Below are positions 40,803 to 50,893 of a stretch of 64,000 nucleotides of DNA, in pieces. Source of the stretch: Psilocybe cubensis. Lineage: Eukaryota. The stretch spans positions 4,588,001 to 4,652,000 of the forward strand of contig CM038998.1 of NCBI GenBank assembly GCA_017499595.2. The letters are read 5' to 3'. Positions within the stretch are counted from its first letter, which is position 1; each line of letters begins with the position of its first letter. Both the position numbers and the translations under genes were made by a program. The notes beneath the pieces were generated by a model. That model saw nothing but the letters and a program-made list of their open reading frames with translations, did no database searches and was not told where the DNA came from.

Positions 40803-41275
40803 TGAAGCCTTCATACCTGGCAGTTTCCAGGTGTATGGGAAGTATCTACGCTGGCAACTGCCAGGTGCCACAATTGAAGTCTTCAGCTGGGCAATGGTCA
40901 ATACGGCCAAACAAACCCCAAACACAGTGAGCGGGGCCCCGCCGGGCGCGAAAAATGGCGTAGCTCGTTGTTCGGGGGGCCGTTTGGGGCGGGAAAAAAT
41001 GCGTTGGGGTCGGTTCGATGAGCAGACCACGTCGGCATTGTTTGCGCGACGTTATGGACAGCGGGCGGGGTGGATGGGGCGGGGCGACGTTGGATGACGC
41101 CCGCATTATTTCTGGGTGATTTCCCGATTCGGGTTGCAGATCATTGATGTGTTGATGTGATCAAATTGATCATCACCATCAATCCCATCACGCCGCGGCC
41201 ATCGATTCAGCCAGCGCATGCACCGTGCGCGCGCGCGCGTTGAAAACGCGCACTGCTCGTTGTCCTGTAAGTCTT
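40803..41275 (+). repeat. Left inverted arm (473 bp, GC/CpG-rich)
   Basis: Its reverse complement matches 42578-42899 plus 50740-50893. The ORF track also shows the same MRASSNVAPPHPPRP... peptide on opposite strands. Confidence 0.95.
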
Positions 41276-42577: not shown

Positions 42578-42899
42578 AAGACTTACAGGACAACGAGCAG
42601 TGCGCGTTGAAAACGCGCGCGCGCGCACGGTGCATGCGCTGGCTGAATCGATGGCCGCGGCGTGATGGGATTGATGGTGATGATCAATTTGATCACATCA
42701 ACACATCAATGATCTGCAACCCGAATCGGGAAATCACCCAGAAATAATGCGGGCGTCATCCAACGTCGCCCCGCCCCATCCACCCCGCCCGCTGTCCATA
42801 ACGTCGCGCAAACAATGCCGACGTGGTCTGCTCATCGAACCGACCCCAACGCATTTTTTCCCGCCCCAAACGGCCCCCCGAACAACGAGCTACGCCATT
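42578..42899 (-). repeat. Right inverted arm, inner part (interrupted by the Plavaka insertion)
   Basis: Reverse complement of about 40954-41275, apart from a 3-nt loop inversion. Confidence 0.95.
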
Positions 42900-43344
42900 T
42901 GTCGGAAACTTCCCAGGTGCATGATCAGGCCGATAATGCCGTTAATGCTAAATTTGTATGATAATGCCTGATCAGAATTGTAGTCGCATGATCATTAAGC
43001 ACCAACGTGATCAGGTAGGCCATGATCAGACAACAAATACCTGATAAGATGCATTTGACAAGATTAGGTGACCCGTAAAATGAGAAGAGTCAAACATGAT
43101 CAAAAGAATACAAGAGCGTTGCTTGCCTTTAACACATACCTATAAGCCAGATATTGTAATTACAGAGCATTCATTAAGAGGATGTACTTAGCGGGATTCG
43201 AACACATTACCTTGAAAGTTGTTAGATATACGTGAAAGACTTCTTACCTTTAAAACCACTGAGCCATTTAGCTGGATATTAACTGGTTAAAAAAGGTTAA
43301 CTCGTACCTTTGTAAACATTTAACTCTTGAAGGCGTCACTCTTT

Positions 43345-43416
43345 GCCTCGCAAGTCGGATGCGCCTTGCAAATCGGATACACCTCGCAAATTGGATATGC
43401 CTCACAAATCGGATGA
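43345..43416. repeat. 18-bp minisatellite, 4 imperfect copies
   Basis: GCCTCGCAAGTCGGATGC / GCCTTGCAAATCGGATAC / ACCTCGCAAATTGGATAT / GCCTCACAAATCGGATGA. Confidence 0.8.
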
Positions 43417-43549
43417 GATTGACTTTTGCTCTTACAGTAATACCCACAATTTGCAAGGGACTAATAGCAGTCGGATAATGACAGTAAGTTCAGTTTAAAA
43501 TCTACACTGGATGTACTAATATTATCAATAGGACATCGACAATAATAAG

Positions 43550-45843
43550 TTATTTCCGTCCTCTTTTTCCAGAACCCCGGGACCGCGTTGAAGACTTCCC
43601 ACCTCGTTGCGTGCCTGGGTCATGACTGGTGGGAGAGGAATCATTGGCATTGTCATCGGAATGATGGGAGGCATTGATTGTGTGAAAAGAAGTATGGGCT
43701 GGAAATCTTTCTTCCACGGCTAGACGAGAAGCTATAGCTCTGGACTCGGTGCGTGTTAACCGTTTTGTCAATGTTGCGACGGGTTCTGATGGATTGGCTT
43801 GAGAAGGTAGGGATTCCGTCAAAGGGTCGGCAAGTGTCAATGGATTGATAGTCGTCGGGTTGACATTGATATCATTGACAGAATCTAAAGTTGGATCGTT
43901 GCGGGGCTGTTCATTGAGTGGACGTGCGCCATCGTGATGTGGTTCTTTTTCAAAATTATCAGAGTACTCCGCATCTGTAGTCGGACCATGGATAGGAACA
44001 AGTACTATAAGCCAGTATAAATTAGTACAGTATTAACAAACATAGTCACAAAAGTTGAATTTATGACTTACAATCTGAGCGCATATCTTGACCTTCAATA
44101 TCGTTGTCTGCATCCTCCGTTTCATCGAAATCTTCTCGATCAAATGCATCAGAATATGAAGACACAGCAAATTCAGATTCTTCTTCAAGACGCAGACGCT
44201 CCATGTCTCGCTCAATTTCGGCAGCTTGATCTAATTCAATAACCTCTCCATCACCATCGTGTCCAGATTGTCCATGTGCCGAAATATTGACAGCAAATAC
44301 TTCACTGTCCCACTCTTTGAGAAGTCTAACAACATACCCTGCAGTTGCCGGATTTGCATGAAGTTGGGTGAGGTACATTTTGTAATAATTGATCTCGGCA
44401 TTGTAGTCAATCTTCGTATCGGGTCCAATTCCTGACCCGCCAAACGATTTGTCGCTAGATAAAATATATCTGCACTGATAATAGATGAACGTTGTATATA
44501 ACAAATAAGGTAGACGGTCCAGCAACTTACAAATCCACAAATATTTGCAATTAGACCAAATGTAGTCTTTGCAGGCTTGTCCGACCCTAGATAAAAGCTT
44601 GAGGCCCGAGACACAGCATTGTCCTTGTCCATAGCGGATGTCTTTCCAAAAAGCGTAGCACGAGCAGTCTACAACAAGCCACCATAGTTAGTGTGAGCTT
44701 TGTAATTAAAAAAAATAAGCAAGTAACTGTTCATACCATATATAGAGACCTGTTTCGAAATCTATGTTCAACACGGGAGGTATCACCATTTTTACACAGA
44801 ATAGGTGGAAAGCGAGCATAAGCCTTTTCGGGTGAGGCCTTTCCTGCTTCCGAGTTAGCAAATGCGACATTAAATCCCAAAAGCTTCTGAATTTCCGGCA
44901 TCTTGATTCGTTGGGATGTAAATTTAGGATCAAAGTAATGTGTCGGAAGGCCAAAAATACTGGCTGCACAAGACGTTCGAAGCATTGATAATGATGTGGA
45001 CCGACCAGCACTGAGTCCCTCCCTAAACTGTCGATGTAATTTGCACCCATTCAACAAAACATTAGCATTCTATCGACAACTCGTTTAATTTAGAATATTA
45101 ATGACTTACCAATCGGAGAAATGTTTTACCCTTTGAGCTAGACGCCAACCGCATGATTGGATGATACTTGGAGGGAATGTGCTCGTAAAGCTCTAGAGTT
45201 GCTCCAATAGCCTCATTAGCTGGTGATTTGTAGCGCTCAACGCTGTCCAAGGCAAATGATGCAGTAGGTAATGTTGGAGAAAACATGGCAGGTGTAACAA
45301 AGAGATTGTAAAACAGTCCAAAATACCGCCCCCATTTTTTCACATCCAGCGCCATATCTGTCACAGCAGGGTCTACTTCGGATGAAATTGGGTCTACAAT
45401 AGTGCCTGGAATACTTGCATTTTTAGCATTCTGCACGCGCTTTGGTTGACGTGTGAGCTGTAGCTTTAAATCTGCAACCTCAGCTTTAAGCTGTGAGTTT
45501 GCAGTCTGTAGAGACGAGTAGTCCTTTTGCAGTGTACAGTAGGCCTATAATATGTCAAAGTGATTCATTTTCTGTTATTCTATACAGAAGTGTGAATGAA
45601 CTGCACCTTATAGAGCTGTGTCATGTCTAGAAATTGAGGAACAGCAAAAGATTCTGAAGGATTATTTGATAGCAAGGAAGCGTTGGAAGAAGAAGTATCT
45701 AGTGGGAGTAATGTTCCGGGATCTGTAGCAAGTCCTGGCATTGAATCCACAATAAGAGGAGGAGTGCTAGTACGTGATAGCATTGGGTGATTGCCAGATG
45801 TACTTCTAGCAGAGCTTGGACCTTGGATACGACGACGGGCCAT
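43550..45843 (-). CDS. Transposon accessory gene of unknown function (multi-exon; coiled coil, conserved core, acidic/disordered tail)
   Basis: Spliceable exons MARRRIQ..., KKWGRYFGLFYNLF, YARFPPIL, ARATLFGKTSA, TTFGLIA, RYILSSDKSF..GPDTKIDY and LLKEWDSEVF, ending GKRGRK*. The gene lies wholly between the TIRs. Confidence 0.75.
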
Positions 45844-46535
45844 CACTTTTATGTAGTTAGATTATGTCTACATATGCCTTTGGCTTGTTTTTTTATAAGA
45901 GCTTCCCTTCTACCCGCTTCCAAATTAACTATAAACAATGTCTTCTATCTACTGATAATGAGGTAGATGTGAAAGTATTGTATTTTAGAACAGTCTGAGA
46001 CACATGCTGCTTGGAAGCGCATGCAATATGATTAGCAGATAAGCATGTTGTAGCTACACACCATTTTGATCAATGCACCCGGTTGATAGTGAAGGGATTC
46101 TCAATTTATTAATTCATCACTAATGCACATGAAATTGCATTGACACCACATGAGCAACTATCTATTGAGACCTCCACCTGATATGTGAGCGCATTCTAAC
46201 ATGATAGAATGCTATTCTATACTACAAATTAATTGAATCTATGTTTAATTTGTTGAATTTAGCCATGCCGCTCTCCAAACGCCTGTTACCATGTGCAATT
46301 GATTTGTTCTAAGTCAACTTTCTCACGGCTGTGAACTTTCTCACGATGTCGCATTCTTCTTTACTTGCATTTCAGGATGTGCCGATGTGTTACCGTTGGG
46401 CCAAAATTAAGTCTTTCAGTTTAATATGCCTAAATATATATGAAAGCGCAGCAAGTCTAAAGAAAATACCTTTATTTGGGGTGACCATTGACAAGTACAA
46501 AGGCAAGTGCAATTAATAGCAGGGCGGACAGTATA

Positions 46536-49500
46536 TTACACATTTGCATGATTAATCAATTCTACATGACCTAAATCTGGATTTAAGCGTTCCCACATAT
46601 CCTGATCAATGAGATCGTTGACCAAAAATTCTGATCCAGTGACATCCGTGCTGTGATTTTTGGATAAAAGTGCACCCCGAATGATTGTATCAGCATGTAT
46701 GAAAACAGCTGATGATCTTGGCCGAGACCGAACCCTGATTAATCCCAAGTCTATGTCGCGTCGGCGAGCCAATAAGGATCGGGGGACATCCATAGGCAAG
46801 GCTAGTGCCATATAATATGTTTGATTATGTAGCTCGATACCAAATAGATACAAAAGCTGCACAAAAATGCATTGCTTTTGATCAACCTTGATAAGGGCAA
46901 AGTCATATCTTTCTTTATGATGGAATTTGGGATTTGTTCGGAGTATATTGCTTTCTACCCGCCAGTCAATGAGTGATTCATAGAATACCTCAATAGACTG
47001 ATAGGGTGTGATCTAAGTATTGAGAAATTTGATGTTAGTTCAATGCTTCAAACTGCATGCAAAAGTCTAAGTCTGATAAAGGTTAAACACTTACTGGATG
47101 ATCTGTACTCAACAAAACTCTACTTCCAACGGTTTGTGAGAGTGATTGACCCAGCCTTCGTCGGAATAAATTAAATGCAGTGTCTTGTGAGTGGATAGTT
47201 TCCAGCTCAAGTTCAGACAATGTAATGGTAGGAAGCTTTGATCCAAGATGTATATGGTCATTTCCAGGCTTAGATTTTGCTGGCAGGTCTAGGCCGTCTC
47301 GTTCTTCTGCATCTTCTATATTTTTCTCCACAGAAACATCGAGTAAGTCTATTCCATCACGTACAATATTTGACACAAGATCCATTTCATTGACTTGGAG
47401 AATCTAACGAGTTAAAAAGATGTAGTGATTCAGTTATGTATCAGGTAATGCTCACATAAAATAACACAGTTCATGGCTTACTTGTGGTGCTACATTCTTG
47501 AAATTGGTATGATTCTGATAGAACTTTTTCAATGGTCCGTTTGCCTTCTCATATGGCTTTGTATTATAGTTGCGAGTTACGCCTTTATTAAGAATGTCGT
47601 CAAATATATGCTGGTGCGTGTGTGTCTTGGGAAAATTCCAAGACTTCTCTGGACTTTCAGATGCATACAACTATTTTGTTAAAATTTTGTGACAAAGTAA
47701 GCCACAAACCAATATTTGTAAAAGAAACACACCTGAAGAGTTTTGTTGAATATTTCAAGATATTTCCGGCCATTACTGATTGTTGTTTCCGTTTGCAGAG
47801 TTAGTGAAGCAAACATTCGAAGGTTTAGGTAGCTCCGAATTAGCCGTAGTAGTAAGTATCCACGTGGAGAAGCTTCAGCAGTCAGCACATGTTGAGCAGC
47901 AAAAATGATAACCTTGGATAGGTGTTCAAACTTTCGTCCATCAGACATTTCTCCGGTTTTATTTAGTGCATCAAAGTGGTTGAGTGCAGGCCATGGGGGA
48001 ATACTTTGCAGACCAAGATCTACACCAACCTCAGCATCTCTACCTAGATCCCTAAGCACTGCTTTTAGCTCCACCAACATATGTGATTTGAATAGTCCCC
48101 CATCATAAGCATGTAGCACATCAAAGGAGAGTGCTTTGTATATATCGGTTCGGTTTATATCCCAGAATACATTCTAGAAACATAAAATATAATTTCAGCA
48201 CAAGAGTAAACAATCACCCTGCTAATGGGCGCTTATTTGAAATATACCATAACATCTGTAATCCCATATGATTTAAGCAGATCTTCGCTCTCTGTTGCAT
48301 TTAAACTTTGGGAATGAATGTAAATTTGACGCATTTGAGAGGTTGTGCGTCGAGGATACACAGTTGAAAGGTTGGAAAGCTCGGAATTTGGAACTAAACA
48401 AATTGGGCAAGGAAACAGTCCTGTTCGACCTCGTGTCAATGCCATCATTGTCCTGTCAATAAAATTATAAATTAGTTATGCTACAGAACTCTACTTTTAT
48501 AATACAGCTTACTGTTCTTCGTAGTCAGCAGATATTGAGAGAATATGAGGAAAGATATTTCGAGTCTTTCCATCACCACACTTGATTGCAGCTCCAAAGG
48601 TTGCTGGCGCTTCAATTGACTGTAGAATTTTGTGTACGGCCTTATGCCAAATTAACCGTTTAAGGTCAACGTAGCTGGCTTTGTGAGTATGGGCTGAATC
48701 CTCGTCTGGCTATAATGAGAGAAGTTCAAATAATATTAGCAAAGATATGGGCTATTTGAGAGACATTGAATCATGTAACAAAATAGAGACATACAATGGG
48801 TAACCAGCCAATAAGTCGACCTCCTCCAACTCCAGTTCCATTCCGAATATCAACAGGAAGGTTTGCACATCGTACCATGACAGGATAGCCTTTGACTGTT
48901 CCAAAGGATGATAATTGGGATTTATCTGCCCAAGGATTGATGAACATTACACTAGCGTCATTTGGAATGTCTGGCCGTGACTTTGACATATCAAACATTT
49001 TGTGAGTAAATAGACTTGATTCTCAATGAAGTATTAGAATTTTGATACCTGGATGTCCCACCAAGTGTTCGCAGTCCACGGCTCATCAATTATCCGCTCA
49101 AACCTCTCTCCTTTATACATGAACAACTGTTCTGCATTCCAGTGAAACCTTCGGACAAGTGCTGGATCCAAAAGAAGTTCACGGCACCATTCCCATAGGG
49201 GACGGTACCACACATTGTAGGTAAGGCTTTCACCCTTGTAATCGACCGAAATGGGAGTCTTGATAAACTAAACCAGTTTCCAACAGGTGAATAATGAATT
49301 GTTAAATAAAGTTGCAGTGTGCACGTACTCCCTGTGCACGGGTTTCCCGTGCAAAAGTCCATATTTGAGTTAAATCGGCATCATTTTTCAGTGTGAATTC
49401 ATTCGGTGATGCGATGGCTTGATGAATTAGAGCGATAAGCACCTCTAACTGATTATGGCTCAGATGGGCGCTAAGAAATATCTCTGCAAACTCGAAGTCA

Positions 49501-50142
49501 AGACGTGTACGGAACGGGCGCCAAGGCCTCTGGTCCACATTGACCGAGTTTAATGGTGAGTTGCCTTCGCTTTCAAGCTCGCAGTATTCGTCAAAAGTAT
49601 AATTTGCATCTGGCATTTGGGAGCTTGGGTGATACTTAATGTGTATGTCTTGAAATTGGGGAGTGTCAGTGCTGCGAGCTTGCTCAAAATTGACGTCTAA
49701 TTCAGAATCCTCTTTTACAACATCATCAGTAGCTTCTTATCTGTTTTTCTCTCAATTAAATAGTGCTTACCTTCGGAGAATATATTCGGAAAGTTGGGTA
49801 CTTCTGGTAATATACCGGCCTTGTGATAGTTGTTTGGATGTTGTTGTTGAGCAATTCGGATAGCATCATCAACTATTAGAAATACAAGCATTAGAAATAT
49901 GTATGCACAGAAGTAGATACCATCTTTCCATTTCTGCCCTCTTGCTCAGCAAGAGCAACAAATTCCGTGTCGATTTCCGGTGCGTGACGGTTTGAATTGG
50001 CTGGATTGAGTGCGCATCGTCGTTCATGAGCTCCAATTCCGCGAGGAAGGTACATGTTTGTGCACCAGGTGCACTCAACACGACCAGGATCTGCATGAGA
50101 CATCATGTGCCCTTTAGATTGAGATGTTTTACGAGGAGGCAT
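46536..50142 (-). CDS. Plavaka-family DDE transposase (multi-exon)
   Basis: PWRPFRTRLDFEFAE, YRPLWEWCRELL, DEPWTANTWW, WADKSQLSSFG..GYPV, LSISADYEEQ, FPCPICLVP, LSFDVLH, WNFPKTH, NYNTKPYEK and RYDFALI. Exons from about 49735 to the stop splice in frame without stops. The phase of the first exon (CxxC...H...C finger) was not cleanly resolved. Confidence 0.9.
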
Positions 50143-50739
50143 AATATTTGGTAAGAGGCTTGTAAGAGAGAAGATAAGGGCGCTATTTGTTCATTTAAGA
50201 AAGCACACATTCCACTGTAATTTATACTTTTCTATGTCTTAAGAAATTGAGTTACATTAAGCTAGAAGAGTTCTATACCTTCTCTAGAAGTTTACATGTC
50301 TACTTTCTTGTGGAACTAAGTGTTCTAAGCATGCTAAACTTTGTAGATGACAAAAAATCGAAGCCATTAAAGGCATTTAAAGTGTTCTATTGTCCATTTT
50401 ATTTGTGTTTAGTATTGTGATATACAATCTAATCATACAACCTAGTGCACAGATTGCCCGTAGAAGCATAATGTGTGGTGCTATTAGGGTTTTTGGTATG
50501 CTTAAACAACTCCAAAGTCTCTAGCAATCGTTTCCTCACGTCGTCTATGACAAGTCCCTAGTGTACGTTATCTTATCTTAAGGTCATTTATAACATCACA
50601 CTGCTCTTAGCATTAACAGGAGGCGGTCTCGCTTATCATACCACGTTGTGCATTTTAGCCCATTAACAATGATCTGATCAGTAAAATTGGGGCAATGATC
50701 AGACTAACGCCTGAAAAGGCGATCTAGAGGTTTCCGACA

Positions 50740-50893
50740 TTTTTCGCGCCCGGCGGGGCCCCGCTCACTGTGTTTGGGGTTTGTTTGGCCGTATTGACCA
50801 TTGCCCAGCTGAAGACTTCAATTGTGGCACCTGGCAGTTGCCAGCGTAGATACTTCCCATACACCTGGCAACTGCCAGGGTACGAAGGCTTCA
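50740..50893 (-). repeat. Right inverted arm, outer part
   Basis: Reverse complement of 40803-40955, with two substitutions and one indel, all in the outermost ~30 bp. Confidence 0.95.

What the first reader, a model, noticed from the sequence alone, without database searches (positions are those of the whole stretch)
43550..45843. Uncharacterised second gene carried inside the Plavaka element
Seen: an intron-containing gene, co-oriented with and downstream of the transposase, entirely within the TIRs. It has a short coiled coil, a globular core and an acidic tail, with no catalytic motif I recognise. Established: CACTA elements use a second protein (TnpA) that binds subterminal repeats, and some fungal Plavaka/KDZ elements carry TET/JBP cargo; no TET/JBP motif is visible here. 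Inference: a dedicated partner protein, either an end-binding factor or an anti-silencing factor, making a two-component transposition system.
Basis: partly seen in the sequence, partly recalled or inferred. Interest (0 to 1): 0.7.

Follow-up and report, generated by a model that had tools for sequence, protein, structure and literature searches.

The report
Conserved second gene of Plavaka transposons
The gene is real and is a standard, selected part of one class of mushroom jumping genes (PlavakaA transposons); it belongs to an unstudied protein family (DUF6698) with no recognisable fold, and probably helps the transposase, though what it does is untested.

Summary
Window 43550-45843 (minus strand) is a 6-exon, 652-aa gene. 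It lies 690 bp downstream of, and co-oriented with, an intact 975-aa Plavaka transposase. Both sit inside a 7,840-bp element (42900-50739) with TGTCGGAAAC...GTTTCCGACA ends and a 2-bp TT duplication, i.e. PlavakaA. Source names place it in Psilocybe cubensis.

The protein is a divergent member of Pfam DUF6698: 176 clusters at 50% identity, and every species named to me is an Agaricomycete.

Linkage to Plavaka transposases is strong:
- 10 of 11 DUF6698 loci traceable in one P. cubensis annotation are adjacent or fused to one.
- Fused gene models occur in two other genera.
- 2 of 3 metagenome contigs show the same gene order.
- All 3 contigs carry the same 10-bp terminus downstream.

Two diverged copies give dN/dS of about 0.35.

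The AlphaFold models show a coiled coil, a basic all-alpha core with no match to any solved structure, an acidic stretch and a basic RG-rich end. This is not a TET/JBP fold.

Function is inferred only. I favour a TnpA-like end-binding partner (about 0.4). An anti-silencing factor or an import adaptor remain open. No searchable paper describes the DUF6698-Plavaka link.

The parts
42898..42899 (.). Target-site duplication TT (left copy)
   Evidence: Empty-site paralogue (reverse complement of 40930-40980) compared with both junctions. A 2-bp TSD fits PlavakaA as described in PMC12730594, section 3.2.2.
42900..42909 (-). 3' terminus of the element (GTTTCCGACA in element orientation)
   Evidence: The same exact 10-mer lies downstream of the DUF6698 homologue in L001, L002 and L003.
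42922..43102 (.). Subterminal cluster of six TGATCA palindromes (mostly [A/C]TGATCA[G/T])
   Evidence: Poisson P about 2e-9 for 6 in 203 bp at the window-wide rate.
43346..43414 (.). 18-bp tandem repeat (about 4 units, CCTCGCAAATCGGATRYG-like) in the 3' subterminal region
   Evidence: family D1.
43550..45843 (-). DUF6698-family accessory gene: 6 exons, 652 aa
   Evidence: gene model; identical annotated protein; family.
45844..46535 (-). 692-bp spacer between the transposase stop and the accessory-gene ATG
   Evidence: Coordinates. No feature was tested in it.
46536..50142 (-). Plavaka transposase gene: 11 exons, 975 aa, intact
   Evidence: 0 of 975 residues of P0168 unmatched; Pfam PF18759 on exons. 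An N-terminal C-x2-C...H-x3-C motif is conserved among relatives (ORF 49891-50190; consensus).
50675..50701 (.). Two TGATCA motifs in the 5' subterminal region
50730..50739 (-). 5' terminus of the element (TGTCGGAAAC in element orientation)
   Evidence: PlavakaA-1_CCO and PlavakaA-1_LB in Data S1 of PMC12730594 also start TGTCGGAAA.
50740..50741 (.). Target-site duplication TT (right copy)

Best explanation
The gene is the conserved second (accessory) gene of PlavakaA cut-and-paste transposons of Agaricomycete fungi.

Shown:
- It is carried inside the element's termini, downstream of and co-oriented with the DDE transposase.
- It has diverged roughly in step with the transposase through several element lineages.
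- It has been kept under purifying selection.

Inferred:
- The protein pairs up through its coiled coil.
- Its basic all-alpha core, and perhaps the RG-rich basic C-terminus, bind the palindromic subterminal repeats of its own element (TGATCA in this copy).
- It thereby marks or synapses the two ends and recruits the transposase, which recognises the conserved TGTCGGAAA terminus.
- This would make it a functional analogue, not a homologue, of En/Spm TnpA, in the same CACTA/Mirage/Chapaev/Transib (CMCT) group of elements.
- The conserved acidic helix (about 444-465) would be the contact for the transposase or another partner.

I put about 0.9 on the 'integral accessory gene' part and about 0.4 on the TnpA-like mechanism. 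The confidence given is for the whole statement.
For: Position inside a complete element with an intact transposase.

Linkage in one P. cubensis annotation:
- DUF6698 genes JR316_0000062, _0000069, _0001546 and _0013128 each have a Plavaka transposase at the neighbouring tag (_0000063, _0000068, _0001547, _0013129): 4 of 4.
- A second family, 31.5% identical, occurs as adjacent pairs at 3 loci (7191/7192, 8380/8381, 4027/4028) and as fused transposase-DUF6698 models at 3 more (P0156, three accessions).
- The neighbours of one further locus (JR316_0008922) are unknown.

Linkage in other genera:
- Six of the 150 listed HMMER representatives are 800 aa or longer. Three of these carry transposase sequence N-terminal to the DUF6698 part: P0017, P0094 (Crepidotus variabilis) and P0061 (Candolleomyces eurysporus).

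Metagenome contigs:
- In L002 and L003 the transposase C-terminus is followed on the same strand by the DUF6698 homologue.
- L001 has only 703 bp upstream and is uninformative.
- All 3 of 3 carry the exact terminus GTTTCCGACA downstream of the gene.

Selection and co-divergence:
- dN/dS is 0.35 over 289 codons between L002 and L003.
- Between the 92%-identical paralogues P0001 and P0002, the coil is 98% and the core 96.7% identical, against 79.5-80% in the acidic and disordered parts.
- Transposase identity and DUF6698 identity to the window copy fall together: 100/98.8, 90.8/91.5, 88.9/90.2, 60.6/53.5 (pairing assumed), 41.5/31.5, 39.6/25.2, 31.1/25.5.

Features that fit end binding:
- Coiled coil 74-111; core net +13 with pI 9.5; last 22 residues net +8.
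- Palindromic repeats are concentrated at both ends.
- The terminal 10 bp are conserved between diverged elements, while the subterminal repeats differ: TGATCA here, TAATTA/GATTAG types in L001-L003.

Precedent: TNPA binds the subterminal repeats, and both TNPA and TNPD are required. TNPA and Tam1 TNP1 share no similarity although a similar role is ascribed to them (PMC2613891, Background and Discussion passages).
Against: - No DNA-binding domain is recognisable. Pfam finds only DUF6698, and the PDB profile search gives only coiled-coil noise.
- The transposase has its own conserved N-terminal Cys/His motif, which could bind the subterminal repeats itself.
- A shared palindromic 8-mer frame between this element and its relatives was looked for and not found.
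- The repeats are asymmetric: 6 at one end, 2 at the other.
- The window protein scores just under Pfam's own DUF6698 threshold (22.2 against 23.7 bits).
- Locus-tag adjacency and fused gene models are indirect; I could not read those genomes.
- The three metagenome contigs may come from related organisms, so they are not three independent lineages.
- The dN/dS blocks were set by tblastn segments and contain 1-2 stops each where they run into introns, so the value is approximate.
Confidence: 0.4

Rival explanations
1. Anti-silencing or chromatin factor. The protein protects its own element from methylation or heterochromatin, as VANC does for VANDAL elements. It would fill in PlavakaA the role that the TET/JBP cargo is proposed to fill in PlavakaB.
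For: According to PMC12730594 section 3.2.2, all TET-carrying Plavaka families are PlavakaB; this PlavakaA element carries DUF6698 and no TET. A long acidic stretch (net -25 over 83 residues) is common in histone-binding proteins (my own knowledge). The VANDAL precedent is quoted in the Bostrychia preprint (10.1101/2025.02.11.637652, passages).
Against: No enzymatic or chromatin-reader domain is detected. Whether PlavakaB elements lack DUF6698 was not tested, so the complementary distribution is not established. The acidic stretch is among the least conserved parts between paralogues (79.5%), apart from one short helix.
Confidence: 0.2
2. Transposase adaptor without sequence-specific DNA binding. 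It binds the transposase and brings it into the nucleus or stabilises it, like the import role of the Harbinger Myb-like protein. The basic N- and C-terminal ends would act as nuclear localisation signals.
For: The start (MARRR / MSRR) and end (RGRG..KRGRK-type) are basic and conserved across the family. There is a conserved amphipathic acidic helix after the core (EVIELD..AEIERDL). Harbinger precedent: the Myb-like protein imports the transposase by contacting its N-terminus (PMC9392472, Introduction passage).
Against: A 300-residue conserved basic core is more than an adaptor with two localisation signals would need. No interaction data exist.
Confidence: 0.15
3. Regulator that limits transposition, for example an element-encoded repressor that binds the ends or the transposase and dampens activity or transcription. 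This would resemble the Suppressor side of TNPA.
For: TNPA is described as both a positive and a negative regulator (PMC2613891, Background passage). The same architectural arguments apply as for end binding.
Against: Conservation in every traceable autonomous copy, with co-divergence, fits a required factor at least as well. There is no direct evidence.
Confidence: 0.1
4. Passenger: a host gene captured by one Plavaka lineage, with no role in the element's life cycle.
For: DNA transposons of fungi do capture genes (TET/JBP in many lineages, PMC12730594 abstract). Some DUF6698 hits are fused in gene models to host-type domains: chitin synthase in P0041 and kelch in P0053.
Against: The same gene order is seen in element lineages whose transposases are only 31-42% identical. 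There is purifying selection. The family is multi-copy within genomes, for example 5 Flammula alnicola accessions in one 90% cluster. No single-copy host orthologue pattern was seen.
Confidence: 0.05

Closest known systems
TnpA of maize En/Spm and TNP1 of Antirrhinum Tam1 (second proteins of CACTA elements)
   Same: A second protein encoded within the element, co-oriented with the transposase. The element belongs to the same broad group (Plavaka is placed in CACTA/EnSpm-Mirage-Chapaev-Transib by PMC12730594) and has arrays of short subterminal repeats. TNPA and TNP1 are themselves unrelated in sequence (PMC2613891), so a third unrelated family in fungi fits the pattern.
   Different: No sequence similarity to any Pfam family other than DUF6698. 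Here it is a separate gene 690 bp downstream; whether it shares a transcript with the transposase, as in En/Spm, is unknown. DNA binding is untested.
Pfam PF20414 (DUF6698) and PF20149 (DUF6532)
   Same: 65 of 70 aligned relatives match DUF6698 at E<=0.01. In P0095 both models match the same stretch: residues 224-335 (DUF6698) and 231-332 (DUF6532, 27.6 bits against a cutoff of 24). The two DUFs are therefore probably related. The ESM Atlas ranks both at 0.95-0.96.
   Different: The Pfam model covers only about the C-terminal 200 residues of the roughly 300-residue core. The window protein falls just under the gathering score (22.2 against 23.7 bits). Neither family has a described function or a described link to transposons: 0 papers hold 'DUF6698', and 1 paper holds 'DUF6532', as a domain count only.
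TET/JBP dioxygenase cargo of PlavakaB, Kyakuja and other fungal transposons
   Same: An extra gene carried by fungal DNA transposons, including Plavaka (PMC12730594).
   Different: TET/JBP enzymes are double-stranded beta-helix proteins (my own knowledge). This protein is modelled as all-alpha with pLDDT above 90 over the core and has no Pfam Tet_JBP match. The host element is PlavakaA, not PlavakaB.
Myb-like ORF of PIF/Harbinger transposons
   Same: An obligatory second protein that binds the element ends, binds the transposase and imports it (PMC9392472, Introduction passage). This is a model for how a two-gene DNA transposon works.
   Different: No Myb/SANT/trihelix match. It belongs to a different transposon superfamily.
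Plavaka-associated genes PAG1-3 of red-algal giant Plavaka elements
   Same: Accessory genes inside Plavaka elements. PAG1 has no known domain (10.1101/2025.02.11.637652, passages).
   Different: I had no PAG sequences and could not compare them. Those elements are 17-19 kb with three accessory genes; this one is 7.8 kb with one.

Membership tests
PlavakaA DNA transposon (the element that carries the gene) | Transposase with the Pfam Plavaka (PF18759) domain | tested here: met
   Exons 49034-49267, 48771-49022 and 48509-48709 reach the gathering score (35.7, 26.5 and 36.9 bits against 26.3). Two further exons match below it. The full 975-aa product equals P0168, which carries PF18759.
PlavakaA DNA transposon (the element that carries the gene) | Termini 5'-TGT..ACA-3' and a 2-bp target-site duplication (PMC12730594, section 3.2.2) | tested here: met
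   TGTCGGAAAC...GTTTCCGACA with flanking TT/TT against an empty-site paralogue. The junction could also be read as GTCGG..CCGAC with a 4-bp ATTT duplication. I chose the 2-bp reading because published PlavakaA consensus sequences start TGTCGGAAA.
Pfam DUF6698 (PF20414) | Score at or above the family's gathering threshold (23.7 bits) | tested here: not met
   The window protein (as P0001) scores 22.2 bits, E 1.3e-4, over residues 296-427. It is narrowly below the cutoff.
Pfam DUF6698 (PF20414) | Significant full-length homology to proteins that do pass the threshold | tested here: met
   phmmer gives P0004 8.3e-83, P0005 2.8e-66, P0010 4.3e-33 and others. These score 35.5, 38.7 and 47.6 bits on PF20414. 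65 of 70 aligned relatives match at E<=0.01.
En/Spm TnpA-type second protein | Sequence homology to plant TnpA/TNP1 families | tested here: not met
   No Pfam family other than DUF6698 at E<=0.001 for P0001 and 27 relatives, nor at E<=0.01 for 70 relatives beyond single chance-level coiled-coil hits.
En/Spm TnpA-type second protein | Encoded within the element, same orientation as the transposase, in an element with subterminal repeat arrays | tested here: met
En/Spm TnpA-type second protein | Binds the subterminal repeats and is required for transposition | not testable with these tools
   Needs EMSA or DAP-seq and an excision assay.
En/Spm TnpA-type second protein | Produced by alternative splicing of a transcript shared with the transposase | not testable with these tools
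   No RNA run was listed as holding the stretch. Fused gene models (P0017, P0156, P0161, P0094, P0061) are predictions, not transcripts.
TET/JBP dioxygenase cargo | Tet_JBP sequence signature and a beta-rich double-stranded beta-helix core | tested here: not met
   No such Pfam match. DSSP on two confident models shows helices and only isolated one-residue bridges.
Harbinger Myb-like second protein | Myb/SANT/trihelix domain | tested here: not met
   No such Pfam match.
Any solved protein fold | Structural match of the core to a PDB chain | tested here: inconclusive
   Core model: Foldseek best E 1.1. VIA-align against 48,161 representatives gives best Z 4.7 and none at Z>=5. The second look at 625 Foldseek candidates gives best Z 2.6.

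The most novel reading that the evidence does not exclude
DUF6698 (and perhaps its relative DUF6532) is a fungal, transposon-born protein superfamily with a previously unseen all-alpha fold. Its members are sequence-specific, dimeric end-recognition factors that co-evolve with the palindromic subterminal repeats of PlavakaA elements. Plavaka would then be an obligatory two-protein transposition system. The hundreds of 'hypothetical' DUF6698 genes in mushroom genomes would be transposon genes, not host genes.
Probability: 0.3. Interest if true: 0.7.

Novelty: new variant of a known kind. Interest (0 to 1): 0.5.

Why it matters
It gives a genomic context, and so a testable function, to a Pfam domain of unknown function that is widespread in mushroom-forming fungi: 176 clusters at 50% identity.

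It shows that PlavakaA elements are two-gene transposons. The literature I could search mentions only TET/JBP as Plavaka cargo in basidiomycetes.

It flags many 'hypothetical proteins', and chimeric gene models of 1,300-1,470 aa, in Agaricomycete annotations as transposon genes.

The core has no detectable structural relative, so solving it could reveal a new nucleic-acid- or transposase-binding module.

An intact, recently active two-gene element with known ends is also a starting point for a transposon-tagging tool in Agaricomycetes.

Tried and rejected
**Whole-genome search:** no genome is held for this window. Copy number and linkage therefore had to be inferred from protein records and locus tags.

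**RNA evidence:** no RNA holder listed.

**Co-fold with the transposase:** Complex prediction was never accepted because its queue was full. The hand-ins were. No job ran, so no result exists.

**Fold searches found nothing usable:**
- Full model: Foldseek PDB best E 1.3. VIA wide gave only coiled-coil matches to residues 72-135, Z<=5.2.
- Core model: Foldseek PDB best E 1.1; VIA wide best Z 4.7; VIA on Foldseek candidates best Z 2.6; BFVD best E 0.2.
- PDB sequence-profile search gave only coiled-coil noise, best E 0.015.

**ESM Atlas:** beyond DUF6698 and DUF6532 there was nothing credible.

**Word-based search for long fused forms** with the 70-sequence alignment returned nothing, although P0156 (1,467 aa) exists. 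This was a tool miss, not evidence.

The 5-sequence alignment A3 worked.

**Ideas dropped:**
- A divergent 'PE-type' TET/JBP: rejected by the all-alpha model.
- A shared palindromic frame CTRATYAG in this element and its relatives: only 2 of the 3 window-wide sites lie in the element, and there are few in L001-L003.
- A tRNA-like stretch near 43180-43270: ARAGORN finds none.
- A tyrosine-recombinase-like catalytic set: the order of the conserved R/H/Y residues does not fit, and no fold match supports it.

**Papers:**
- Iyer et al. 2014 (PMC3918813), the paper that named Plavaka, is not held. I cannot exclude that it mentions extra genes.
- In the supplement of PMC12730594 the consensus sequences are cut when stored. 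I could not check whether its PlavakaA or PlavakaB families carry DUF6698.

**Earlier notes of this scan:** none bears on this.
Full report
**What is there**

The minus strand of 43550-45843 holds a six-exon gene.
- Exons: 45843-45607, 45544-45110, 45027-44737, 44668-44531, 44474-44072, 44004-43550.
- The five introns are 56-82 nt with GT..AG ends. The spliced frame is open for 652 codons.
- Its product is identical to stored protein P0173, which its source names a hypothetical protein of Psilocybe cubensis (JR316_0001546). It differs at one residue from P0001.

**The element around it**

An inverted-repeat search showed that a 460-bp sequence at 40816-41275 recurs in inverted orientation in two pieces, 42578-42904 and 50735-50879. 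So about 7.8 kb was inserted into the second copy. Comparing the uninterrupted copy with the two junctions gives the following:
- an element of 7,840 bp, 42900-50739;
- termini TGTCGGAAAC...GTTTCCGACA;
- a duplicated TT.

This matches Kojima's PlavakaA, which has 2-bp duplications and TGT..ACA termini (PMC12730594, section 3.2.2, read in full). Two PlavakaA consensus sequences in that paper's Data S1 also begin TGTCGGAAA (the stored sequences are cut).

Upstream of the gene, on the same strand, lies the transposase. All 975 residues of P0168 are encoded without a single mismatch in 11 exons, 50142-46539. Its exons hit Pfam Plavaka. The copy therefore looks autonomous: intact transposase, intact second gene, both ends and a target duplication.

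The ends are rich in the palindrome TGATCA. There are six in 42922-43102 and two in 50675-50701, against 34 in all 64 kb. The window-wide count is itself no more than shuffles give (29.8 +/- 5.5).

**Is the gene a regular part of such elements?**

No genome is held for the window, so I used protein records.

A HMMER search of 1.84 billion cluster representatives found 176 relatives at E<=1e-3, 41 of them at E<=1e-10. The homology spans residues about 60-470.

In one P. cubensis annotation:
- The four near-identical copies (JR316_0000062, _0000069, _0001546, _0013128) each sit one locus tag from a Plavaka transposase.
- A second, distant family (31.5% identity in the accessory protein, 41.5% in the transposase) appears as three adjacent pairs and three fused transposase-DUF6698 gene models.
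- One more homologue (JR316_0008922) has unknown neighbours.
- In total, 10 of 11 traceable loci are linked.

Outside Psilocybe:
- Six of the 150 listed HMMER representatives are 800 aa or longer. Three carry transposase sequence in front of the DUF6698 part. Two of these are from other genera, Crepidotus variabilis and Candolleomyces eurysporus. Of the remaining three, one is fused to kelch repeats and two show only DUF6698.
- A scan of metagenome contigs gave three loci. Two show the C-terminal part of a Plavaka transposase followed on the same strand by the homologue. The third has only 703 bp upstream.
- In all three, the exact 10-mer GTTTCCGACA lies downstream of the gene on the expected strand. 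By my arithmetic each such hit is expected about 0.002-0.006 times by chance.
- The three contigs may be from related organisms.

Named sources of homologues are all Agaricomycetes:
- Agaricales: Psilocybe, Flammula, Gymnopilus, Agrocybe, Galerina, Pholiota, Crepidotus, Candolleomyces, Laccaria.
- Boletales: Serpula, Pisolithus.
- Polyporales: Fomitopsis, Daedalea, Somion.

**Selection and co-divergence**

- Between L002 and L003 (75% DNA identity over the gene), dN/dS over 289 aligned codons is 0.35. The value is approximate because the blocks were set by tblastn segments.
- Between the two 92%-identical P. cubensis subfamilies, the coil and core are 97-98% identical but the acidic and disordered parts only about 80%.
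- Identity of the transposases and of the accessory proteins to the window copy falls in the same order across seven element pairs (one pairing is assumed).
- This pattern fits long association, not repeated capture.

**What the protein looks like**

Pfam assigns the family to DUF6698 (PF20414). Sixty-five of 70 aligned relatives match. The window protein itself scores 22.2 bits against a threshold of 23.7. In one relative (P0095), DUF6698 and DUF6532 match the same stretch, and the ESM Atlas ranks both highest. The two DUFs are therefore probably related.

An AlphaFold2 model built with a 70-sequence alignment (mean pLDDT 72) shows:
- a disordered N-terminus;
- one long helix, 74-111;
- an all-helical core, about 138-437, with pLDDT above 90;
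- a disordered C-terminal third.

A second model, of a 339-aa relative that is little more than the core, reaches pLDDT 90.5 and pTM 0.84.

Charge and conservation:
- The core is basic (net +13). Residues 438-520 are very acidic (net -25). The last 22 residues are basic and RG-rich (net +8).
- Conserved across the family are the basic start (MSRR-like), the motif LSxDxxF...GxGxxxxIxY in the core, a short acidic helix (EVIELD..AEIERDL), and the basic RG-rich end.
- There is no TET/JBP signature, and there are no beta strands to build one.

**Comparison with known structures and families**

Nothing matched.
- Full model: Foldseek against the PDB gave best E 1.3. VIA-align gave only coiled-coil matches to the long helix.
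- Core model: Foldseek best E 1.1. VIA-align against 48,161 representative chains gave best Z 4.7, with none at 5 or more. The second look at Foldseek's candidates gave best Z 2.6. Viral models gave best E 0.2.
- A PDB sequence-profile search gave coiled-coil noise only.

The tool's own notes say that a missing match does not prove a new fold, so I report it as no detectable relative.

**How it most likely works**

Shown: the position, the linkage, the conservation and the architecture.

Inferred: the function. I favour a TnpA-like role for four reasons.
- Plavaka belongs to the CACTA/Mirage/Chapaev/Transib group.
- In En/Spm a second protein binds the subterminal repeats and is required together with the transposase. 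The second proteins of different CACTA elements are unrelated in sequence (PMC2613891, passages).
- Here, a dimerising helix plus a basic core suits palindromic sites.
- The terminal 10 bp are conserved between elements while the subterminal repeats differ: TGATCA here, TAATTA and GATTAG types in L001-L003. That is what one expects if a conserved transposase reads the tip and a faster-evolving partner reads the repeats.

Against this reading:
- No DNA-binding domain is recognisable.
- The transposase has its own conserved N-terminal Cys/His motif.
- A search for a common palindromic frame failed.

Rivals:
- An anti-silencing factor. This gains some appeal because all TET-carrying Plavaka families are reported to be PlavakaB.
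- A nuclear-import or stabilising adaptor, like the Harbinger Myb-like protein (PMC9392472, passage).
- An element-encoded repressor.
- A mere passenger, which is least likely.

**Novelty**

- 'DUF6698' occurs in no searchable paper.
- 'DUF6532' occurs in one paper, as a domain count only.
- A search for 'Plavaka' found 20 papers, of which 16 were listed.
- The main text of Kojima 2025 has no occurrence of 'accessory' or 'ORF'. Its mentions of 'two proteins' and 'third protein' concern Harbinger only.
- The Bostrychia preprint states that in basidiomycetes just one accessory gene, TET/JBP, was found with Plavaka (passages).
- The founding paper (Iyer et al. 2014) is not held, and Repbase could not be consulted, so prior mention there cannot be excluded.

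The kind of system, a DNA transposon with a second non-catalytic protein, is well known. The protein family, its apparent lack of structural relatives and its tie to PlavakaA appear new.

**What was left open**

- No RNA evidence was available.
- The planned co-fold of the core with the transposase could not be queued.
- The cross-genome linkage rests on locus tags, fused gene models and three short contigs, not on a systematic survey.

Noticed in passing
window 40816-41275, 42578-42899 and 50740-50879: The Plavaka element has inserted into one arm of a 99%-identical inverted repeat of about 460 bp. The arms enclose a 1.3-kb AT-rich centre (GC about 0.34) and seem to start near TGAAGCCTTC. This may be a long-TIR non-autonomous or foldback element. 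It provided the empty-site control.
   Followed up: partly
window 43346-43414: An 18-bp tandem repeat (about four units, 82-100% identical) lies between the accessory gene's stop codon and the TGATCA cluster. It could be a second kind of binding-site array or just a minisatellite.
   Followed up: no
window 46536-50142 versus proteins P0166 and P0167: The accessory protein identical to the window's is JR316_0001546. At that locus the public annotation lists only 173- and 177-aa transposase fragments (JR316_0001549, _0001547). The window DNA nevertheless encodes the full 975-aa transposase. This is probably an annotation artefact or a different copy.
   Followed up: partly
window 49921-50142 (transposase exon 1): A C-x2-C...H-x3-C motif at the very N-terminus of the transposase is conserved in the 10-sequence transposase alignment. 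It is a candidate zinc-finger DNA-binding module that competes with the accessory protein as reader of the element ends.
   Followed up: no
L002 5136-7216 versus L003 3267-3746: Two related metagenome elements differ by about 2 kb of extra DNA between the accessory gene and the conserved 3' end in L002. This could be further cargo or a nested insertion.
   Followed up: no
proteins P0095, P0041, P0053: In P0095, Pfam DUF6698 and DUF6532 match the same residues, which suggests the two fungal DUFs are one superfamily. P0041 (Serpula lacrymans; 3 of the 4 cluster members are named glycosyltransferase family 2 / chitin synthase) and P0053 fuse a DUF6698 part to chitin-synthase and kelch domains. 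These are probably chimeric gene models at insertion sites.
   Followed up: partly
proteins P0017, P0156, P0161, P0094, P0061: Gene predictors repeatedly join the transposase and the accessory gene into one 875-1,467-aa protein. Either these are systematic mis-annotations or there are real read-through, alternatively spliced transcripts as in En/Spm.
   Followed up: no
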